Of a stretch of DNA of 64,000 bases, positions 25,439 through 55,781 are shown one piece after another. This stretch comes from Myxococcota bacterium (GTDB lineage: Bacteria > Myxococcota_A > UBA9160 > UBA6930). The position numbers and the translations under genes were made by a program. The notes under the pieces are model-generated. The model did not search any database and was not told the DNA's origin. It saw only the letters and a program-made list of their open reading frames with translations. Numbering within the stretch: position 1 is the first letter of the stretch; each line of letters opens with the position of its first letter. The stretch is from contig OZ245015.1 in assembly GCA_965223705.1 (NCBI GenBank), positions 3,232,001-3,296,000 on the forward strand. Reading direction: 5' to 3'.

Positions 25439-27529
25439 ATGCGTACGGGAATTCGTCAACTGGCTCTGGCCGCACTGGTCTTGGCCGGTCCCTGGGTCGC
25501 CGGCGGGGCAACCGTCGTCGACGACGCAGCCATCGCCGACGAGTCGGACGGCGCGAACTGGCTCGCGTACGGCAAGACGCACAGCGAGAAGCGCTACAGC
25601 CCGCTGTCGCAAATCAATCTCGAGACGGTCTCCGGCCTCGGGCTCGAGTGGTTCCTCGACCTTCCGATCGATCGCACGCTCATCGGGACGCCGCTCGCCG
25701 TCGACGGCGTGCTCTATTTCACCGGCAGCTACAGCCGCACGCGAGCCGTCGATGCGAAGACCGGGAAGCTCCTCTGGACCTACGACCCCGAGTCGACGAA
25801 ACACGCGGGCGATCGACTTCGCATCATGTGGGATTCGAGCCGTGGTCTCGCTTTTTGGAAAGGCAAAGTCATCATCGCCACGATCGACGGGCGATTGGTC
25901 GCGATCGACGCGAAGACCGGGAAGAAGGTCTGGGAGACCATGACCATCGACCCCGAGAAGGCGTACTACATCACGGGCGCTCCGAAGGTCTTTCGCGACA
26001 AGGTCATCATCGGGAACGGCGGCACGGAGTTCGAGGCGGCGCGGGGCTACGTGACGGCGTACGACGCCGCGACCGGCGAGCTTGCGTGGCGCTTCTATAT
26101 CGTACCGGGCAATCCCGCCGACGGCTTCGAGAACAAGGCCATGGAGATGGCGGCAAAGACCTGGACCGGCGAGTGGTGGAAGCTCGGCGGCGGCGGCAAT
26201 ACCTGGAACGGCATCACCTACGACCCCGAGTACAACCAGATCATTATGGGAACCGGCAACGGCTCTCCCTGGAACCGCAAGGTGCGAAGCCCCGGCGGCG
26301 GCGACAACTTGTTTCTCTGCTCGCTGGTTGCCGTCGACGCGGACACCGGCGAATACAAGTGGCACTACCAGACGGTCCCGGGCGAGACCTGGGACTACAA
26401 CTCCAATATGGACGTCGTCCTGGCCGATCTCGAGATCGGTGGAGAAACCGTCAAGGCGCTCATGCACGCTCCGAAGAACGGTTTCTTCTACGTGATCGAC
26501 CGGAAGGACGGGAAGCTGATCTCCGCCGAGAAGATTGCGAAAGTCACCTGGGCTTCGCACATCGATCTCGAAACCGGGCGTCCCGTCGAAAACCCGGACG
26601 CGCGGTACGAGGATGGGGAAGCCGTGGTCTGGCCGAGCCCGTACGGCGCCCACAGCTGGCACGCCATGTCCTTCAACCCCAACACCGGGCTCGCATACAT
26701 TCCGATCATCGAGCTGCCGGGCCTGTTCCGGGATGCGGACATCGACCTCAAAGAGTACACCCCGCCGAGCTTCACGATCGAAGTCGGCGTGGAGTTCGGT
26801 CTATCGCTCGACCCAGGAGACGAAGGCACCGCGTCCCTGATGGCGTGGGATCCCATCCGCCACAAGAAGGTGTGGACGGTCCCGCTTCCCAACAACTGGA
26901 ACCCCGGAACCATGACCACAGCGGGCGATCTCGTGTTCCAGGGTCGCGCCGATAGCGAGTTCGTGGCGTACAACGCGCGGACGGGCGAAACCGTGTGGTC
27001 GCAGCGACTGGGAACTGGGATCTCGGCGCCGCCGATCACCTACAGCGTCGACGGCAAACAGTACATCTCGATCCTCGCGGGCTGGGGAGGAGCCGGCCCC
27101 GCACTCGGAGGGGTTCTCCACAACCAGCACGGTTGGGCCTACCGGGCTCACCCGCGACGCCTTTTCACCTTCGCGCTGGGCGGCGATACACCGATGCCAC
27201 CGTCGCCGCCTCCCGTCATTCCGACGCCGGTCGACGTAGCGGACTTTGAGATTGACGAAGCGCTCGCAAACGCCGGTTCGGAGATCTACAACGACACTTG
27301 TGTCATCTGCCACGGCGGCGGCGTGATCTCCGGAGGCAAAGCGCCCGACCTGCGGGCATCGCAGGTCTCACTGAAGCTCGACTCGTTTCGGGAAGTCGTA
27401 CGCGCGGGACGTCGCCCGCTCGGCATGCCGCACTACCCCGAGCTGAGCGACCAGGAGATCGAGGGCATCTTCCACTACGTGCGCCAACAAGCGCGGGTCG
27501 GCCTTCAAACCGCTTCGACCGCGCCTTAG
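25439..27529 (+). CDS. PQQ-dependent quinohemoprotein dehydrogenase (type II) with C-terminal cytochrome c
   Basis: Signal peptide, RYSPLSQIN, repeated W-docking motifs, GTGNGSPW, WDYN and the heme motif CVICH. Confidence 0.93.
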   Translation: MRTGIRQLALAALVLAGPWVAGGATVVDDAAIADESDGANWLAYGKTHSEKRYSPLSQINLETVSGLGLEWFLDLPIDRTLIGTPLAVDGVLYFTGSYSRTRAVDAKTGKLLWTYDPESTKHAGDRLRIMWDSSRGLAFWKGKVIIATIDGRLVAIDAKTGKKVWETMTIDPEKAYYITGAPKVFRDKVIIGNGGTEFEAARGYVTAYDAATGELAWRFYIVPGNPADGFENKAMEMAAKTWTGEWWKLGGGGNTWNGITYDPEYNQIIMGTGNGSPWNRKVRSPGGGDNLFLCSLVAVDADTGEYKWHYQTVPGETWDYNSNMDVVLADLEIGGETVKALMHAPKNGFFYVIDRKDGKLISAEKIAKVTWASHIDLETGRPVENPDARYEDGEAVVWPSPYGAHSWHAMSFNPNTGLAYIPIIELPGLFRDADIDLKEYTPPSFTIEVGVEFGLSLDPGDEGTASLMAWDPIRHKKVWTVPLPNNWNPGTMTTAGDLVFQGRADSEFVAYNARTGETVWSQRLGTGISAPPITYSVDGKQYISILAGWGGAGPALGGVLHNQHGWAYRAHPRRLFTFALGGDTPMPPSPPPVIPTPVDVADFEIDEALANAGSEIYNDTCVICHGGGVISGGKAPDLRASQVSLKLDSFREVVRAGRRPLGMPHYPELSDQEIEGIFHYVRQQARVGLQTASTAP

Positions 27530-48220: not shown

Positions 48221-49060
48221 ATGGAACTCGAAGTTCTCGCCTGGGGCTATCAACTCGTCGAAGGGCCGCGCACGGATTCCGAAGACAACTTGTATTTCAC
48301 CGACGCGTTCGGCTCGAAAGTGCTGCGTCGATCACCGAACGGAGACCTCGAGACCCTGATCCGCGACCGATCGATGGTCGGAGGGCTCGCGCTCCATGCC
48401 GACGGTGGCTTCGTGATGTCCGGACCGACCGTCGCACACTGGAAGGACGGAGAAGTACGCACCCTCCTCTCCCGAAAAGGCGTCGTCTCATTCAACGATC
48501 TCCATCCCGATCAAGCGGGCCGGATCGTCGTCGGGGCGATTCGAAGCGACGTCAATGACCTAAAGGCCGACAAGATCCCCGGTGAGTGCGTTCGGATCGA
48601 GCTCGATGGAACGGTCGACGATCTCTACGATGGTGTGGAGATCAGCAACGGCATCGGCTTTTCGCCGGACGGCGCCACGCTCTACCACGTCGATTCAACG
48701 CGGAAGGGAGTCATCACCCACGACGTCGATTCCGCGGGAGCCCTGTCCGGGAGACGGCTGATCGGTCGAGACAGTTTCGCGAGAGGCATCCCGGATGGGA
48801 TGTGTGTCGACACCTCTGGAAATCTATGGGTCGCTCACGTCGGCGGACGGCGGGTGGTGAAGCTGTCGCCGGACGGCGACGAGCTCGACGAGATCCCCGT
48901 TCCCGCGAAAGCGGTAACCAGTTGCGCGTTCGGCGGACCGGAGATGAGCGATCTCTACATCGTCACGGCCGACAACCTGGACGATGCCAGCCGCGGTGGG
49001 ACCGTCTTTCGCTGCCGGCCCGGGGTCGCCGGAGTACCGACCCCACTCGCTCGGGTTTAG
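48221..49060 (+). CDS. SMP-30/gluconolactonase/LRE family protein
   Basis: EGP, FND, SNGIGFSPDG, PDGMCVD and TSCAFGG motifs. Confidence 0.92.
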   Translation: MELEVLAWGYQLVEGPRTDSEDNLYFTDAFGSKVLRRSPNGDLETLIRDRSMVGGLALHADGGFVMSGPTVAHWKDGEVRTLLSRKGVVSFNDLHPDQAGRIVVGAIRSDVNDLKADKIPGECVRIELDGTVDDLYDGVEISNGIGFSPDGATLYHVDSTRKGVITHDVDSAGALSGRRLIGRDSFARGIPDGMCVDTSGNLWVAHVGGRRVVKLSPDGDELDEIPVPAKAVTSCAFGGPEMSDLYIVTADNLDDASRGGTVFRCRPGVAGVPTPLARV

Positions 49061-50406
49061 TGCGCCCTTCCTCGCCGGAAGGGATAAAGCACCAACCCGA
49101 TCGCGACCCAAACGCCGCAGATGACCCACTCTTGGGGCCAGATCAGTGCACCGGGGCTCCCGGGCAGGTAGAGCCCGATGATCCCGAGCGCCAAGACAAA
49201 CGCGAGAACGCCCACGGCCGTTCCAAACCGAACCCGGTATGGCCTCGGCAGGGACGGTTCCTTCTTGCGGAGGACCAAGAAAGCGAGCGCGACGATCGCA
49301 TACGCGATGATGACTCCAAGACTTCCCGCGTCGATGAGCCACACGAGTGCGGGCCGCCCGAACCAAGGAGCGAGGCACGACACCGCGCAGATGCACCACA
49401 ACACGATAGACGGCGTCGCGTAGCGCTTGTGAAGGACGGCGAACCGCGTTGGGAGCATCGCGTCCTCAGCGAGGGCGTACACCAGGCGACTCGATCCGAC
49501 GAGACAAGCGTTCCACGTCGTGACGATCCCTGCGATGCCTCCGACGATCAGGATGGTTGAGGCCCACCGCGATGACCACGCCGCCGCCGCCGCATCGGCG
49601 GTCGTCAAATCGCTCGCAGCTCGCGCCTCTCCGTCGAGGACGTACGCAACGGCCAGGATCATCGCGATATAGAAGAGTGCGGCAAAGATCATCGACGCGA
49701 CGATCAAGACGCCGATGCGCCTCGGGGGCAAGTCGATCTCCTCCGCCGCTTGGGGAATGATGTCGAAACCGAGGAACATCAGGGGGAGCATCACAACGAC
49801 AGCCAGTGCCCCGGACAGGCCGCCGTCAAACAGTGGAGCCATGTTGTCGGACGAGCCGCCCGCCGCCGCGCCGGCGATGAGAACCAAGCCGGAGAGCACG
49901 ATCACCGCCGTCACGGCACTTTGAAGCCGTGCCGCAGTGGCGATCCCGCGCACATTGACGACGGTGAGCCCGACGGCCCCGCCAATCCCGAGGGCGACAT
50001 GGCTCGCCCAGACCTCCTCTCCGGCCACCGTCCAAAGCCGCCCGATCCGAAACTCGGGAAACAGGTACGAGACCGCGACCGGAAGAGCGACCGTTTCAAA
50101 GGCGACGACCGAGACATAGCCGAGGAGCAACGCCCAGGTGCACGCGTACGACACCCCCGGGCCGAAGGCGCGAAGACTGTAGACGTGTTCGCCGCCGGTC
50201 TTGGGAAGTGCAGCGGCGAGCTCCGCGTAGGTCAATGCGATCAGCGCAACCGCGATTCCCGTGGCGAGAAAGGCCAAGACCGCGCCGAGCGAGCCGGCGC
50301 GCGCGATCCAAACGCCGGTCAGGAGAACCCAACTCCAGCCCATGATCGCACCGAAGGCCAGCGCGATGACTTCTCGTTGTCGCAGGACGCGTTTAAACGG
50401 CGGCAC
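49057..50406 (-). CDS. APC-family amino acid/amine permease
   Basis: ALAFGAIMGWSW, YAEL..P..GG and FLGFD..PQAAEE motifs, about 12 TM segments; start inferred at GTG50406, overlapping the amidase stop. Confidence 0.9.
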   Translation of the reverse strand: MPPFKRVLRQREVIALAFGAIMGWSWVLLTGVWIARAGSLGAVLAFLATGIAVALIALTYAELAAALPKTGGEHVYSLRAFGPGVSYACTWALLLGYVSVVAFETVALPVAVSYLFPEFRIGRLWTVAGEEVWASHVALGIGGAVGLTVVNVRGIATAARLQSAVTAVIVLSGLVLIAGAAAGGSSDNMAPLFDGGLSGALAVVVMLPLMFLGFDIIPQAAEEIDLPPRRIGVLIVASMIFAALFYIAMILAVAYVLDGEARAASDLTTADAAAAAWSSRWASTILIVGGIAGIVTTWNACLVGSSRLVYALAEDAMLPTRFAVLHKRYATPSIVLWCICAVSCLAPWFGRPALVWLIDAGSLGVIIAYAIVALAFLVLRKKEPSLPRPYRVRFGTAVGVLAFVLALGIIGLYLPGSPGALIWPQEWVICGVWVAIGLVLYPFRRGRAH

Positions 50407-51793
50407 GTCCGAGCTCGACGGGGCCGATCGCTTCCGCGATGGCGTGCGCGATCTCGAGCACGCCACGATCGTCCCCGACCCGACCGATGATCTGGAGACC
50501 GACCGGTAGGCCTTCGGGGGTCACAGAGAAGGGGATCGAAATCGCCGGACACCCGAGCAGGGAGATATAGAAGCACGAGCGCATCCAGTCGATGTACGTC
50601 TCCATCGGTACGCCGTCGATTTCGCGAATCCACTCCTGCTCGATATCGAAAGGCGGCACCTGCACGACAGGCGCGAGGAGGTAGTCGTAGGGCTCGAGGA
50701 ACCGAAGGAAGCGCTGGTACAGAATCCCGCGCTGAATCTCGGCCTCGGCGATTTGATCCGAGGTGAGGGCCCGACCCACTTCGATATTCCAGAGAAGCGT
50801 CTCCTTCAGCTGTGAGCACTGCTCCGGCGTGAGTTCTCGAAAGCTCGCCGCGAAGTGAAACGCCCGCAAGACTTGAAAGATGGCATCGGCGCCGTCGAAG
50901 TCCGGTTCGTCCGCTTCGATACGGCAACCGAGAGCGTCGAGAGCGCCCCGTTTGCGCTCGAGAGCGTCGCGCACCCGCCGATCCACGGGAAGCCCGCCGA
51001 GATCGGCGCTCCAAGCGAGTCGCATCCCGCGCACCTCCCGACCGAGCGGTTCGCGAAATACCGACCCGGGTTCCGGCCGTGCAAGAGGATCGCGAGGGTC
51101 CGGCCCAGCGATCGCACTCAGGAGCAACGCGCAGTCCGGGACATTGCGCGCCATCGGCCCGAGCACCGCGAGCCCGGACCAAGCCAAGGTCGCCGGCACG
51201 TTGGCCACCCGTCCCGGAGTCGGCCGCAAACCCACGACGTTGCAAAAGCTTGCAGGGTTTCGCAGCGATCCGCCCATATCGCTTCCGTCGGCAATCGAGA
51301 GCATGCCCGACGCGAGCGCAACAGCCGCGCCTCCGCTGCTACCTCCGCACGTCTTGGTCGGATCGAAAGGATTACGTGTCGCCCCGAAGACGGGATTGAA
51401 GGTCTGGGACCCGGCCCCGAACTCGGGCGTATTCGTCTTGCCGATGCTGATCGCGCCCGCTTGCCGCAACCGCGTGACGATGAGGGCGTCTTCGTCGGGA
51501 ACGAAGTCGCGAAAGAGCGGCGAGCCGTAGGTCGTCCGGATGCCCGCTGTGTCGACGAGATCCTTGTGCGCGATGGGCAGCCCGTGGAGAGGGCCGAGGG
51601 GATCCCCGCGCTGGCGCCGCGCATCGGCAGCCCGGGCGGAAGCGAGCGCACGCTCGGGACACAGCGTCACAATCGCGTTCAGTTCCGGATTCTTCGCTTC
51701 GATGATCTCGAGTGTTTCTCGAACCAGCTCTTCCGCGGAAATCGCCCCGCTAGCGAGTTGTGCCGCTCGTTCGGTTGCCGTGGCGTAGGGCAT
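50393..51793 (-). CDS. Amidase-signature family amidase
   Basis: PIAHKD, GKTNTPEFG, GGSSGG and GSDMGGSLRNPAS (Ser-cisSer-Lys triad); ATG51793. Confidence 0.93.
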   Translation of the reverse strand: MPYATATERAAQLASGAISAEELVRETLEIIEAKNPELNAIVTLCPERALASARAADARRQRGDPLGPLHGLPIAHKDLVDTAGIRTTYGSPLFRDFVPDEDALIVTRLRQAGAISIGKTNTPEFGAGSQTFNPVFGATRNPFDPTKTCGGSSGGAAVALASGMLSIADGSDMGGSLRNPASFCNVVGLRPTPGRVANVPATLAWSGLAVLGPMARNVPDCALLLSAIAGPDPRDPLARPEPGSVFREPLGREVRGMRLAWSADLGGLPVDRRVRDALERKRGALDALGCRIEADEPDFDGADAIFQVLRAFHFAASFRELTPEQCSQLKETLLWNIEVGRALTSDQIAEAEIQRGILYQRFLRFLEPYDYLLAPVVQVPPFDIEQEWIREIDGVPMETYIDWMRSCFYISLLGCPAISIPFSVTPEGLPVGLQIIGRVGDDRGVLEIAHAIAEAIGPVELGRAAV

Positions 51794-51794
51794 C

Positions 51795-52817
51795 TCAACG
51801 GGGTTCCGCTGGGTGGAAAGGATCGCAGAACACGCAACCGTCGCCGATCCCTTTCGCTTCGAGTAGCCGAGTGACGTCGTCGCACATGGCGGGCGCGCCA
51901 CACAAGTAAGCGTCGAGCGCGCTCGCGTCGGGCAGTTCGCGTTGGATCGCCTGCGTGACCCGACCGACGATCCCGTCCCAACCGCACGCTTCGGTGGGCT
52001 GGGAAAGACATGGACGGTAATCGAGATCGATGCGCCGCCCGAAGTCGGCAAGCTCGGCCTCGTAGGGGAGATCGGCTCGCGTGCGCGCTCCGTAAAACAG
52101 CGTGAACGATCGCCGATCCTCGCGTTCCGCCGCGTCGGCGAGTATCGAGAGGAGCGGCGCCAACCCCGACCCAACGCCGACCAACAGGACGGACCGATCG
52201 CCTTCCCGCAAATAGCTCTGGCCGAACGGGCCTCGTAGTGGAATCTCCGCGCCTGCGGACAGCCGATCGAGTTGTCCGGAGAAAGCGCCGTTCGGCAGCC
52301 GCTTCATCAGGAAATCGAGTCTGCCCTCGTCGCTCGGCGGGTTGGCGATGGAGTACGCACGCCACGCGGAAGCCGCTCCCGGTACGCCCAATTCGACGTA
52401 CTGGCCGGGATAGAACGCGATCGGCTGATCGGGCTCGAGGGAGAGCCGCCACAGCGTCTCCGTGCGCGCCTCTACCGAAGCGACACGCGTCATGGTCTCG
52501 GTCGGCGTCAGGACGGGGAGACTCCGCGCGTCGTCGCCCTCTTCCGCTTCGATCTCGAGATCTTCGAGCGGTACCGCGCAGCACAGGAGAGCAAAACCTT
52601 CTTCTCGCTCTTCCCGGGACAACGCGAACGTCGAAGCCCGACCGAAATCCACGTCCCCCTGGCTGAGGAAGTATTTGCACGAAGAGCAGCTGCCTTGCCG
52701 GCATCCGTAGCGAAGCGGTACGCCCTCGCGGAGCGCGGCGTCGAGAACCGTCTCGCCGGGTCTTACGGAAAACGTCGCGCCGCCGGGCTCTACCCGAACG
52801 CGAAAGGAAGTGGCCAT
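51795..52817 (-). CDS. Soluble di-iron monooxygenase reductase ([2Fe-2S]/FAD/NADH)
   Basis: CRQGSCSSC..LLCC, RAYS, GSGLAP and YLCG.P.M motifs. Confidence 0.93.
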   Translation of the reverse strand: MATSFRVRVEPGGATFSVRPGETVLDAALREGVPLRYGCRQGSCSSCKYFLSQGDVDFGRASTFALSREEREEGFALLCCAVPLEDLEIEAEEGDDARSLPVLTPTETMTRVASVEARTETLWRLSLEPDQPIAFYPGQYVELGVPGAASAWRAYSIANPPSDEGRLDFLMKRLPNGAFSGQLDRLSAGAEIPLRGPFGQSYLREGDRSVLLVGVGSGLAPLLSILADAAEREDRRSFTLFYGARTRADLPYEAELADFGRRIDLDYRPCLSQPTEACGWDGIVGRVTQAIQRELPDASALDAYLCGAPAMCDDVTRLLEAKGIGDGCVFCDPFHPAEPR

Positions 52818-52820
52818 CGC

Positions 52821-53120
52821 TCAGTCTTCAGAGAGCTGGAGCATCGCCGTCGTCACGAGGAAACTGTCGGGCTCGGTCTCGACGCGGCCGACGAACGAAC
52901 TCATGATGACCAGCCATTCGGAGAGCTCGATCGGCTCGCCGAGCTCTTCCCCGACACGATGAAGATCGATCCGGATCTCTTTTTCGTGGGTCAGCTGCCA
53001 ATACGTCTCTTTGTCTTCGATCGCGACGTCGGGGTGATCTTCTCGGAGCACGTCGAGCGTGGCGTCGGTCTCGGGACTCTTCATCAGCACCAGGACTACC
53101 CGGGAAATCGCCTCGCTCAC
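52821..53120 (-). CDS. SDIMO coupling/effector protein (MmoB/DmpM family)
   Basis: VVLVLMKS..IRIDL..V.EELG..MSSFVGRV. Confidence 0.92.
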   Translation of the reverse strand: MSEAISRVVLVLMKSPETDATLDVLREDHPDVAIEDKETYWQLTHEKEIRIDLHRVGEELGEPIELSEWLVIMSSFVGRVETEPDSFLVTTAMLQLSED

Positions 53121-54136
53121 TCGAACAACTCCGTGAGGCCGTACGACTCGACAACGTCGCGCTGGCTCTTCTGCGCGTTGTCGAACGCTTCATCGAATGA
53201 GCGGACGGGGCGGGGAATATCCTTCCAGACGGGCTCCAACGCCTTGGCCGCTTCCAGCGCGGGCGCTTGCCACGCCGCAAACCACTCTCGGATCACGTCG
53301 CGGTTTCCCGCCGCGTCGGGATTCTCGTCGGCGATCGCCATTCGAACGAGCTCACCGGCGACCGCCTGATTGCGCCGGCGGTCTCGCTCGGTGGTCAGCG
53401 CGATGACCGGGGTCGCTAAGTCTCGGTGGACCGGCGCGTTGTCTCGCAAGAGCGAACCGACACCCAGGTCGGCAACCACCGGAAGCACCGCGAAATTCGT
53501 GACGACACACAGCTCCGCCCAGTCTTCCAGTGCCATCGCCCGCTCGGCGAGCGACCGGAGCGGTTGATAGGCGGCTTCGGAAAGCCAGCGATCCTTCGCG
53601 CCGGTATCGGCAAACCCTTCGATTTCTTGTTCGAGATCCAGCATGAAGAGCACGATCGCCTGGGCGTGCCGCATGTGGTCAAAGCCTTGAAACGCCATCG
53701 CGTGCCCGATCGGGTCGGAGAGCGCTTCGCGATTCGCCACCGCGAAACTCCGAAAGAGTCCGTACTCGAAGAACGACCAGACGCGGTAGTGATCCCGCAA
53801 GACGTGCTCGACCCAGTCGCGATCGAAGGCTCGGAGAGACCCCGCCGCTTTTGCGTCGTCGACCAGGCGCGCAATCGCTCGTTCCTGCTCGGCTTGCATA
53901 CGAACGTAGCTCCGCTGCCAATAGCGACCCGGATCGCGAAAATCGTACCAGTGAGGGTGACGCAACCGCGTCGATTCCGGGCGCCACGCCGGGCGCCCTT
54001 CTTCGGTGCGCATGTAATACTGGGTGTAAGGCTGATCTGGATCCGGCTGGACGTAGGTCGAGACGGCCTCATAGTCCGATAGCCGCCGCCGCGACGGCTT
54101 GACGTAGGTGATGTCTCGAGGGGCGTCGACGCTCAC
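53117..54136 (-). CDS. SDIMO hydroxylase beta subunit
   Basis: RRLSDYEAV..VQPDP, WYDFRDP..WQRSY and DHMRHAQ motifs. Confidence 0.92.
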   Translation of the reverse strand: MSVDAPRDITYVKPSRRRLSDYEAVSTYVQPDPDQPYTQYYMRTEEGRPAWRPESTRLRHPHWYDFRDPGRYWQRSYVRMQAEQERAIARLVDDAKAAGSLRAFDRDWVEHVLRDHYRVWSFFEYGLFRSFAVANREALSDPIGHAMAFQGFDHMRHAQAIVLFMLDLEQEIEGFADTGAKDRWLSEAAYQPLRSLAERAMALEDWAELCVVTNFAVLPVVADLGVGSLLRDNAPVHRDLATPVIALTTERDRRRNQAVAGELVRMAIADENPDAAGNRDVIREWFAAWQAPALEAAKALEPVWKDIPRPVRSFDEAFDNAQKSQRDVVESYGLTELFE

Positions 54137-55695
54137 GACGCGACGGCCTCCTCTCCTGCCATCACGGGCGGCGCGACGGTGCCTTCCTCCTCCATCACAC
54201 GGAGCGGATTCTTGATCTCAAAATCCATCCGGTCGATATCGTCGATCGTCCACATGCGATCGCGGTCGAGATGTGGCTGGCCGAGAAGCGTTTTGTTGTC
54301 CGCACGCAGAAGGCCGTTCTTGCGGATGTACTCCGACAAGCTCCAGCCGTCGTAGACTTCGTCGAATGCCAGGGCGTGCAGGTAGCGGCCCGGGCTTTCA
54401 CTGAAAATGTATTCGCATGCGTCGGAACAGAACGCGTGGAGCCGCCTCTCGTGGGTGCGCACGCGACCGTGGGATGCCTCGACCGTGGGGAATACGCAGG
54501 GCATCTGACACACGCGACACAGTGTCGGCAACGACTCGAAGCCCTCAATCGAGCACGTGCCCTGGGCCGGATCGCAGAGGTCGCGGTACTGGTTCCAGAA
54601 CGCCCCGTAGCGCTCGTACCATCCCGGGGATTTCTTCTCGAACCAATCCATATCGGCTTCGGTGGGCGGATCGAAGCGCCAATAGCTCAAGGGCCAAGCG
54701 GCGAAAGCGAGCATCGCAGCCGTGTGACCCGACCACGACATTCTTTCCTTGGCCAAGTCGAACCAGCGCGGGACTTTCAATCCGAAGGGCTGGAGCTTGG
54801 CGATGTAAGCACCGGCCCAATCTTCCGCGAGCCACTCGTTCCACTTCTCCAGGTAGGAATCGCCGCGCTCCTTCTGGAAGTAGTCGTAGACCACGTGCAC
54901 AAAGGGATCGAGAAACGCGTGTTGGCGCCAAAACGCACGATCGAAGTCCTGCTGGAGCATGGGCAGGTTGTCGGGCTCGGCGAGGACCGCCGCGAGCGTC
55001 GAATACCCGTTGGCCATGTGGCGCGCTTCGTCCGATTGGATACTGAGAAACACGGTCGGAGTCGCTTGATCGCCGTTCTGTGCGGCCATCTGCGTCATCG
55101 CCACGAAGATCGAGTTCGTGTACGCCGTCTCTGCGACGACTTGAAGGTTCAGCGCGCCTTCGATGGGATCGCCCACGAAAAAGCACTCGAGCGCACTTTG
55201 GCTGGCGCGCCCGAATACATTGAGGCTTTTCAGCGGAATCGCGCGATCGAAGCCCTCGGAATCCGGAGCGTGCTTCGCCATGTACCGGTTCAGGTACGTC
55301 TCCTGGTTGACGTGGCGGACCTCGTCGAGCATCTGCGCCATGTAACCCTGCCGGAGCGCCGCGTTGTCCACCGTGTCGACGAGTTGGCCGCAGCATTTCA
55401 TCGCCCCGTACTCACCGAAGGTCAGCACCGGCAACGCGATCTTCAAGATCTCGGTCCAGCGTTCTTCGGCTTGTCCGGTCGAGCCACTGCGGGCAATCGC
55501 GTCCTCGAGTGCACCGTATTGCCGGTCGTCCTTTTCCTGCTCCATCGAGCAGTAGTCGCGGATCAGGTGCCGGAACGGGTCCTTCGTCTTCGCGGGAATC
55601 TTGTACTTCGTGGGATAGCGCTCGGGCTTCGTGTGATACGTGGGTTCCCAATCAAAGTCCTTTACGCGGTTGTGAGCTTCGACGAGGTTCTTCAC
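54133..55695 (-). CDS. SDIMO hydroxylase alpha subunit (group-6-like)
   Basis: Di-iron ligands GEYGA, DEVRH, AETAYTN and DEARHMANG; KDPF..MEQEKDDRQYG; C-terminal CRVCQMPC..FCS. Confidence 0.95.
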   Translation of the reverse strand: MKNLVEAHNRVKDFDWEPTYHTKPERYPTKYKIPAKTKDPFRHLIRDYCSMEQEKDDRQYGALEDAIARSGSTGQAEERWTEILKIALPVLTFGEYGAMKCCGQLVDTVDNAALRQGYMAQMLDEVRHVNQETYLNRYMAKHAPDSEGFDRAIPLKSLNVFGRASQSALECFFVGDPIEGALNLQVVAETAYTNSIFVAMTQMAAQNGDQATPTVFLSIQSDEARHMANGYSTLAAVLAEPDNLPMLQQDFDRAFWRQHAFLDPFVHVVYDYFQKERGDSYLEKWNEWLAEDWAGAYIAKLQPFGLKVPRWFDLAKERMSWSGHTAAMLAFAAWPLSYWRFDPPTEADMDWFEKKSPGWYERYGAFWNQYRDLCDPAQGTCSIEGFESLPTLCRVCQMPCVFPTVEASHGRVRTHERRLHAFCSDACEYIFSESPGRYLHALAFDEVYDGWSLSEYIRKNGLLRADNKTLLGQPHLDRDRMWTIDDIDRMDFEIKNPLRVMEEEGTVAPPVMAGEEAVAS

Positions 55696-55745: not shown

Positions 55746-55781
55746 CCAGTTTCATGATGAACCTGGTGACAACTTTGTCAA
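55746..55781 (-). promoter_or_regulatory. SDIMO operon promoter (TTGACA-16-CATCAT) overlapped by two palindromes
   Basis: TGACAA-CT-TTGTCA at 55767-55780 and CCAGTTTCAT-G-ATGAACCTGG at 55746-55766; consensus -35 at 55776-55781 on the minus strand. Confidence 0.65.

What the first reader, a model, noticed from the sequence alone, without database searches (positions are those of the whole stretch)
49057..55695. Group-6-like di-iron monooxygenase joined in one operon with an amidase and an amino-acid/amine permease
Seen: six minus-strand genes in the order alpha, beta, coupling protein, reductase, amidase, APC permease. The junctions are GTGA, GTGA, a 3-nt gap, a 1-nt gap and a 14-nt overlap, with no visible terminator. 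There is no gamma subunit, Rieske ferredoxin, GroEL-like chaperone or alcohol/aldehyde dehydrogenase. Known: alpha-beta-coupling-reductase without gamma is the order of group-6 SDIMOs (mycobacterial propane/dioxane type), and related group 5/6 enzymes hydroxylate carbons next to O or N (THF, dioxane, NDMA). Inference: gaseous alkanes need neither a permease nor an amidase. This may be an undescribed SDIMO pathway for an N-containing substrate (cyclic amine, lactam or N-alkyl amide), combining uptake, alpha-hydroxylation and amide hydrolysis, in an apparently non-actinobacterial host.
Basis: partly seen in the sequence, partly recalled or inferred. Interest (0 to 1): 0.85.

Follow-up and report, generated by a model that had tools for sequence, protein, structure and literature searches.

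The report
Group-6 monooxygenase with incidental amidase neighbours
These genes encode an intact iron enzyme of a known family that likely attacks short alkanes or cyclic ethers, and the amidase and transporter genes packed behind it are likely chance neighbours, because the enzyme's relatives that could be checked do not keep them.

Summary
In detail: six minus-strand genes with exactly the junctions described. None of 28 related clusters with at least 1 kb of downstream DNA carries the amidase or permease. Two same-order genomes with the closest monooxygenase (80-81%) and amidase (71-72%) keep them on separate contigs. Permease relatives sit in an unrelated sulfur-amino-acid cluster. Tight junctions are normal here (53% of same-strand neighbours lie within 20 nt). 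The pocket is hydrophobic and matches that of a relative lacking the amidase. Non-actinobacterial group-6 enzymes are already in print, and the scan found one before in another genome (e1-1518025). What remains of interest: the host holds four di-iron monooxygenase clusters, and a palindrome found only twice in the genome precedes this operon and a group-7-like one. No RNA data were available; linkage in a sister species stayed unchecked.

The parts
55754..55781 (-). Sigma-70-like promoter (TTGACA-16-CATCAT), predicted
   Evidence: 1 site found against 1.1 expected by chance, so weak on its own; position fits the operon start
55767..55780 (.). Palindromic operator-like site TGACAA-NN-TTGTCA overlapping the -35 box
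   Evidence: TGAYAANNTTRTCA occurs at 2 places in 4.56 Mb (reversed control 0), here and before the group-7-like operon at G000:C1:3298958
54133..55695 (-). Group-6 SDIMO hydroxylase alpha subunit, 520 aa; iron ligands E95, E125, H128, E189, E223, H226
53117..54136 (-). Hydroxylase beta subunit, 339 aa
   Evidence: PF02332; NF045802 below cut-off
52821..53120 (-). Coupling protein (MmoB/DmpM), 99 aa
   Evidence: (PF02406)
51795..52817 (-). 2Fe-2S/FAD/NAD reductase, 340 aa
   Evidence: CRQGSCSSC motif
50393..51793 (-). Amidase-signature family amidase (PRK07486 subfamily), 466 aa, catalytic motifs intact; adjacent but not conserved with the SDIMO
   Evidence: distribution
49057..50406 (-). APC-family amino-acid permease, 449 aa; adjacent but not conserved with the SDIMO or the amidase

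Best explanation
[quoted passage not shown] Inferred from the family: the reductase would pass NADH electrons to the di-iron centre of the alpha2beta2 hydroxylase with the help of the coupling protein, and the alcohol product would be oxidised by dehydrogenases encoded elsewhere in the genome. The four-gene cassette appears in many different gene contexts; here it landed ahead of a lineage-typical amidase and a permease of likely gammaproteobacterial origin, which are probably read through on the same transcript. The operon is probably repressed through a palindrome shared with a group-7-like operon 11 kb away.
For: Alpha is 56.6% identical over 96% to WP_014805366.1, the group-6 reference with a 50% cut-off; 44-45% to group 4 and about 35% to group 5. 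Tree: in a 15-row clade with NBB4, PH-06 and ELW1 at 86/77 support; that clade plus one group-3-like row is separated from groups 4, 5 and the group-7-like rows at 96/96. 0 of 28 clusters with intact order and at least 1 kb downstream (21 of them with at least 2.8 kb) have an amidase or permease hit behind the reductase; of all 84 loci examined, none has a permease hit and one (L124) has 32-39% amidases 5-7 kb upstream on the other strand. G126 and G127 (alpha 80-81%) hold the amidase (72%, 71%) on other contigs and a 43% permease on a third contig or none. G076 holds all three genes on different contigs. 15 other genomes carry a 55-61% amidase and none has the alpha gene. Permease relatives (60-67%) sit in an FMN-dehydrogenase/Cys-Met-PLP/thioesterase/gamma-glutamyltransferase cluster in 3 of 3 genomes fetched. 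Zn alcohol and/or aldehyde dehydrogenases follow the reductase in 5 of 22 informative relatives annotated, as in NBB4. 40 of 42 inspected active-site-region positions equal those of P0003 (81%, apparently the amidase-less L040 alpha); pocket differences from PH-06 PrmA are hydrophobic swaps. 53% of 2810 same-strand neighbours are within 20 nt and 74% of 697 convergent pairs.
Against: No activity or expression data. The 1-nt gap and 14-nt overlap, with no clear ribosome-binding site before the amidase, point to translational coupling, which is how functionally linked genes usually look. The closest hits (alpha P0001 91%, amidase P0122 90%) could come from a sister species with the same arrangement; their DNA could not be seen. 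The 11-row group holding this protein is only sister to the characterised mycobacterial enzymes, none of its members is characterised, and 17 of 22 annotated relatives have no adjacent dehydrogenase, so the substrate is extrapolated across about 43% sequence divergence. Support for group 6 as a clade is moderate (86/77).
Confidence: 0.68

Rival explanations
1. One reading: the permease imports an N-containing compound, the monooxygenase hydroxylates the carbon next to N, and the amidase opens the resulting amide or lactam; a recently assembled, lineage-specific operon.
For: Tight, probably coupled junctions and no terminator-like site; amidase motifs intact; group-6 PH-06 PrmABCD attacks THF and dioxane and group-5 RHA1 PrmABCD attacks nitrosamines (PMC11825192 Table S2); a recent assembly would not be seen in relatives.
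Against: No linkage in 28 informative clusters, nor between amidase and permease in any amidase or permease locus fetched; pocket nearly identical to an amidase-less relative, with no added acidic residue; no dehydrogenase in the string to turn a hemiaminal into an amide; permease relatives point to amino-acid uptake; tight junctions are the genome norm.
Confidence: 0.08
2. It is a group-6 enzyme, but its physiological substrate is an alkene or another small lipophilic compound shared with the co-regulated group-7-like enzyme, not a gaseous alkane or ether; amidase and permease are still incidental.
For: Shared palindrome with the group-7-like operon, beside which sits a LuxR/HapR-like TetR; the one tested group-7 enzyme oxidises alkenes (PMC11825192); epoxide hydrolases lie near two relatives (L055, L124) and glutathione transferases behind one (L115); three epoxide hydrolase homologues in this genome.
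Against: Characterised group-6 enzymes act on alkanes and ethers; the closest relatives lack the palindrome upstream (0 of 21 upstream regions checked, some cut short), so the shared operator looks recent; binding is untested.
Confidence: 0.17
3. The amidase and permease are transcribed from their own internal promoter as a separate amide or amino-acid scavenging unit and share not even a transcript with the monooxygenase.
For: 74% of convergent gene pairs in this genome are within 20 nt, so close spacing does not need co-transcription; the two genes have histories separate from the monooxygenase.
Against: No promoter-like site found inside the reductase (a simple consensus scan); amidase and permease are not linked to each other in relatives.
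Confidence: 0.07

Closest known systems
Group-6 SDIMOs (propane-1-monooxygenases): PrmABCD of Mycobacterium dioxanotrophicus PH-06, the NBB4 group-6 cluster (WP_014805366.1), SmoABCD of Rhodococcus aetherivorans BCP1
   Same: Gene order alpha-beta-coupling-reductase, no gamma or ferredoxin; 56.6% alpha identity to NBB4 and PH-06; same six iron ligands and a hydrophobic pocket.
   Different: Lies in a sister group of uncultured hosts; chromosomal; no adjacent GroEL, alcohol or aldehyde dehydrogenase or two-component regulator; followed by an amidase and APC permease; palindromic operator shared with a second SDIMO operon.
Uncharacterised group-6 sequences of subgroups A and B of Yang, Kertesz and Coleman 2025 (PMC11825192): Pseudomonadota MAGs, Deltaproteobacteria, Ca. 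Binataceae, Chloroflexi
   Same: Non-actinobacterial hosts; hits named Ca. Binataceae (65%) and Chloroflexi (62%) fall in the same wider clade.
   Different: This protein heads its own well-supported sub-branch (72-91% relatives); which lettered subgroup it joins was not tested, as the review's sequences were not all in hand.
Group-5 PrmABCD of Rhodococcus jostii RHA1 and ThmADBC (nitrosamine, THF and dioxane oxidation)
   Same: Same superfamily and chemistry; the precedent for hydroxylation next to N or O.
   Different: Only about 35% alpha identity to group-5 rows and a different gene order; this genome has its own separate group-5-type cluster with GroEL at C1:1844024.

Membership tests
Group-6 SDIMO | Alpha subunit at least 50% identical (over 80% coverage) to WP_014805366.1 | tested here: met
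   56.6% over 96%; criterion from PMC11825192 Table S1 and Methods
Group-6 SDIMO | Operon alpha, beta, coupling, reductase; no gamma, no ferredoxin | tested here: met
   definition
Group-6 SDIMO | Alpha subunit groups with characterised group-6 enzymes, apart from groups 3, 4, 5, 7 | tested here: met
   15-row clade with NBB4/PH-06/ELW1 at moderate support (86/77); split from groups 4, 5, 7-like at 96/96; the single group-3-like row is a long branch. (quick tree, 69 rows) agrees
SDIMO superfamily | Four Glu and two His di-iron ligands intact | tested here: met
   E95, E125, H128, E189, E223, H226, matching PH-06 E96/E126/H129/E190/E224/H227 in PMC13471431
Group-6 SDIMO | Terminal hydroxylation of short alkanes; THF/dioxane oxidation | not testable with these tools
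   needs enzyme assays
Proposed N-substrate catabolic operon (SDIMO + amidase + APC permease) | Linkage conserved among homologous clusters | tested here: not met
   0 of 28 informative clusters; unlinked in G126, G127, G076
Proposed N-substrate catabolic operon (SDIMO + amidase + APC permease) | Single transcript over all six genes | not testable with these tools
   no RNA holder listed; DNA junctions are compatible with it
Amidase-signature family | Lys-Ser-Ser motifs (HKD, GGSSGG, GSDxGGSxR) | tested here: met
   positions 76, 150, 170 (motif wording recalled); PF01425 355 bits, NF005686 over cut-off

The most novel reading that the evidence does not exclude
A newly assembled operon in one uncultured lineage has put a group-6 di-iron monooxygenase to work on an N-containing substrate, with the permease importing it and the amidase cleaving the product: the first di-iron monooxygenase pathway for growth on a cyclic amine, lactam or N-alkyl amide.
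Probability: 0.08. Interest if true: 0.75.

Novelty: new member of a known kind. Interest (0 to 1): 0.28.

Why it matters
As it stands this adds one intact member to a rare, poorly studied group of biodegradation enzymes and shows that its uncultured sister branch is wide (27 loci at 60-79% in the genome collection, with titles from Gammaproteobacteria, delta proteobacteria, Chloroflexota, Dormiibacterota and Actinomycetota) with no tested member. It is a reasonable candidate for an alkane/dioxane screen, and the shared operator gives a handle on the inducer. If the amine or amide pathway were true it would extend di-iron monooxygenases to growth on N-heterocycles, which matters for pollutant removal, but the comparative evidence is against it.

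Tried and rejected
RNA evidence: no RNA holder listed; the contigs laid only confirm the DNA arrangement and showed no long piece from another organism. Structure prediction from an 8-sequence alignment failed (mean pLDDT 37) and was not used or searched. PDB amidase matches (best E 4e-62, GatA) do not assign a substrate. Cluster-member look-up for the closest alpha and amidase hits could not be made. Equal contig lengths between hit lists (P0008/P0127, P0046/P0320) were noticed and set aside: by a rough hand estimate about one such match per pair of 120-row lists is expected by chance; they stay unchecked. RecA against 17 genomes (15 with a match; 65-72%, and 81% for the partial same-order G062) does not name the host phylum. 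The coupling-protein search added nothing on function. Paper searches: 'di-iron monooxygenase' + 'amidase' gave one listing on 3-hydroxypyridine (listing only); one search returned only chemistry papers; and PMC13390413 (passages) had nothing on this enzyme. Rows left out of the trees: L040 and L057 (stop inside the matched span), L050 and L064 (split matches) and L067; the 24-row tree also omits the phenol and toluene rows. Misassembly was considered and rejected.
Full report
Observation. Pfam and NCBIfam give two PF02332 hydroxylase chains, a PF02406 coupling protein, a Fer2/FAD/NAD reductase, an amidase-signature amidase (NF005686 over its cut-off) and an APC permease. A consensus scan finds no terminator-like site between genes and one sigma-70-like site at 55781-55754, which is no more than chance in count. 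Contigs of public runs span the junctions in one piece, so the arrangement is not an assembly error, though those runs are one study and may be the window's source. No RNA run is listed, so co-transcription is inferred only.

What the monooxygenase is. The alpha subunit is 56.6% identical over 96% of its length to the plasmid-borne NBB4 protein WP_014805366.1 and to PH-06 PrmA. PMC11825192 (seen: parts 1-2 of 11 of the main text, passages of sections 3.6, 3.7 and 6, supplement rows and part 3 of 8) uses that protein as the group-6 reference with a 50% cut-off and defines the operon as alpha, beta, coupling, reductase. Identity to group 4 is 44-45%, to a group-3-like row 40%, to group 5 about 35%. 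In a 24-row maximum-likelihood tree the protein lies in an 11-row group (ten from uncultured or unnamed hosts plus itself) that is sister to the mycobacterial group-6 enzymes (86/77 for the 15 rows together; 96/96 against groups 4, 5 and 7-like); a quick 69-row tree agrees. All six iron ligands are present (PH-06 numbering from passages of PMC13471431). At 13 pocket positions carried over from a recalled list of methane monooxygenase cavity residues through the alignment, nine equal PH-06 PrmA and four are hydrophobic swaps (L91/V, G94/A, L169/F, I219/V). Characterised group-6 enzymes oxidise propane to hexane, THF, dioxane and chlorinated alkanes (PMC11057499, abstract and passages).

Host. 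The genome is 4.56 Mb, 95% complete, has lpxC and so is not actinobacterial. Earlier notes call it Myxococcota-like; I could not confirm the phylum. Group 6 outside Actinomycetota is in print. The genome has four SDIMO clusters; in the 225 class genomes searched an alpha subunit was found in 3, this one included.

The linkage test. I collected 27 genome-collection loci with alpha at 60-79%, 54 metagenome loci and 3 plasmid references, 84 in all. Of these, 28 have the intact four-gene order and at least 1 kb behind the reductase (21 at least 2.8 kb); the other 56 end too early or are split. None of the 28 has an amidase or permease hit behind the reductase; none of the 84 has a permease hit, and one has distant amidases upstream on the other strand. 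The closest genomes, G126 and G127 (same order, alpha 80-81%), carry the closest genomic amidases (72%, 71%) on other contigs. In G127 7.7 kb behind the reductase hold a NUDIX and a DsbA-like gene; in G126 the cluster contig ends in beta, but the amidase has no reductase upstream; the permease is 43% on a third contig in G126 and was not found in G127. The gene that faces the amidase in G127 has its 76% orthologue about 3 Mb away in this genome. Fifteen other genomes of 400 sampled from the phylum carry a 55-61% amidase; all are in the class searched and none has the alpha gene. The permease's best named relatives are gammaproteobacterial and in 3 of 3 such genomes fetched it sits among sulfur-amino-acid and glutathione genes. 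G076 has monooxygenase, amidase and permease on three different contigs. No amidase locus fetched had the permease within its flanks of up to 1.5 kb. What recurs behind the reductase instead, in 5 of 22 informative relatives annotated (91 ORFs hand-picked from a crude caller), are Zn alcohol or aldehyde dehydrogenases, as in NBB4 and BCP1; the other 17 have unrelated neighbours.

How much the tight junctions say. With a self-trained gene caller (4204 genes, start sites approximate), 53% of 2810 same-strand neighbours are within 20 nt and 29% within 1 nt, and 74% of 697 convergent pairs are within 20 nt. Read-through of the amidase and permease is therefore probable but is weak evidence of a shared pathway. 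Against my reading: the amidase has no clear ribosome-binding site, which suits translational coupling, and the nearest proteins in the big collection (alpha 91%, amidase 90%) have no DNA I could see, so a sister species may share the string.

Regulation. Following the lead of e1-9956040 I checked the upstream palindrome: TGAYAANNTTRTCA occurs at two places in the genome (reversed control none), over the -35 box of this operon and in front of the beta-coupling-alpha-reductase operon 11 kb away, whose neighbour is a TetR most like Vibrio OpaR/HapR/LuxR. That operon is called group-7-like from its order and its clade of gammaproteobacterial rows; the group-7 reference itself was not in hand. Shared control with an alkene-type enzyme fits a hydrocarbon-like inducer better than an amine, but binding is untested and the closest relatives lack the site.

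Mechanism, shown and inferred. Shown: intact four-component group-6 enzyme, conserved metal site, hydrophobic pocket, variable neighbours. Inferred: NADH-driven O2 activation and hydroxylation of a short alkane or cyclic ether; onward oxidation by dehydrogenases elsewhere; repression through the palindrome; amidase and permease as passengers.

Literature gap. A search for 'di-iron monooxygenase' with 'amidase' returned one unrelated listing and the scan's notes hold no such combination. The library lacks most subscription papers, and bioRxiv supplements were closed, so absence from print is not established. The scan has already reported a group-6 operon in another genome (e1-1518025).

Verdict. 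A new member of a known kind, in an uncharacterised branch. The amine or amide pathway remains possible only as a recent, lineage-specific assembly (about 8%). Interest 0.28.

Noticed in passing
G000:C1 3284-3288 kb, 3299-3303 kb, 1844-1850 kb, 2768-2773 kb: The genome holds four di-iron monooxygenase clusters (group 6, group-7-like, group-5 type with GroEL, phenol hydroxylase), while an alpha subunit was found in only 2 of 224 other genomes of its class.
   Followed up: partly
window 55767-55780; G000:C1:3298958-3298971; L066:1013-1026: The palindrome TGAYAANNTTRTCA occurs twice in the genome, before this operon and the group-7-like one, and also before a group-7-like operon in L066; a LuxR/HapR-like TetR lies beside the second site. 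Lead from e1-9956040.
   Followed up: partly
L054, L059, L060: Split group-6 clusters in Chloroflexota and Dormiibacterota records: alpha stands alone, with beta (and in L060 coupling and reductase) 3-8 kb away on the opposite strand.
   Followed up: no
L140, L141, L143: Metagenome contigs with two alpha-subunit copies close together and a reductase in front of one of them.
   Followed up: no
L180, L181, L182: Conserved gammaproteobacterial cluster: FMN dehydrogenase, CoA-binding protein, Cys/Met PLP enzyme, this APC permease family, thioesterase, gamma-glutamyltransferase.
   Followed up: partly
window 25439-27526 (+): PQQ alcohol dehydrogenase with a C-terminal cytochrome c domain, a candidate for oxidising the monooxygenase's alcohol product.
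   Followed up: no
window 22520-63880: At least seven luciferase-like monooxygenase genes, two TauD dioxygenases and a flavin monooxygenase in one window, mostly packed with unrelated neighbours.
   Followed up: no
L047:4170-6908: Acetone carboxylase subunits (Hydantoinase_B, gamma) lie 2.6 kb upstream of a group-6 cluster in this record.
   Followed up: no
L040: The record title labels this genome Spirochaetales, whereas the genome search places it in the same order as the window's host; one of the labels is off.
   Followed up: no
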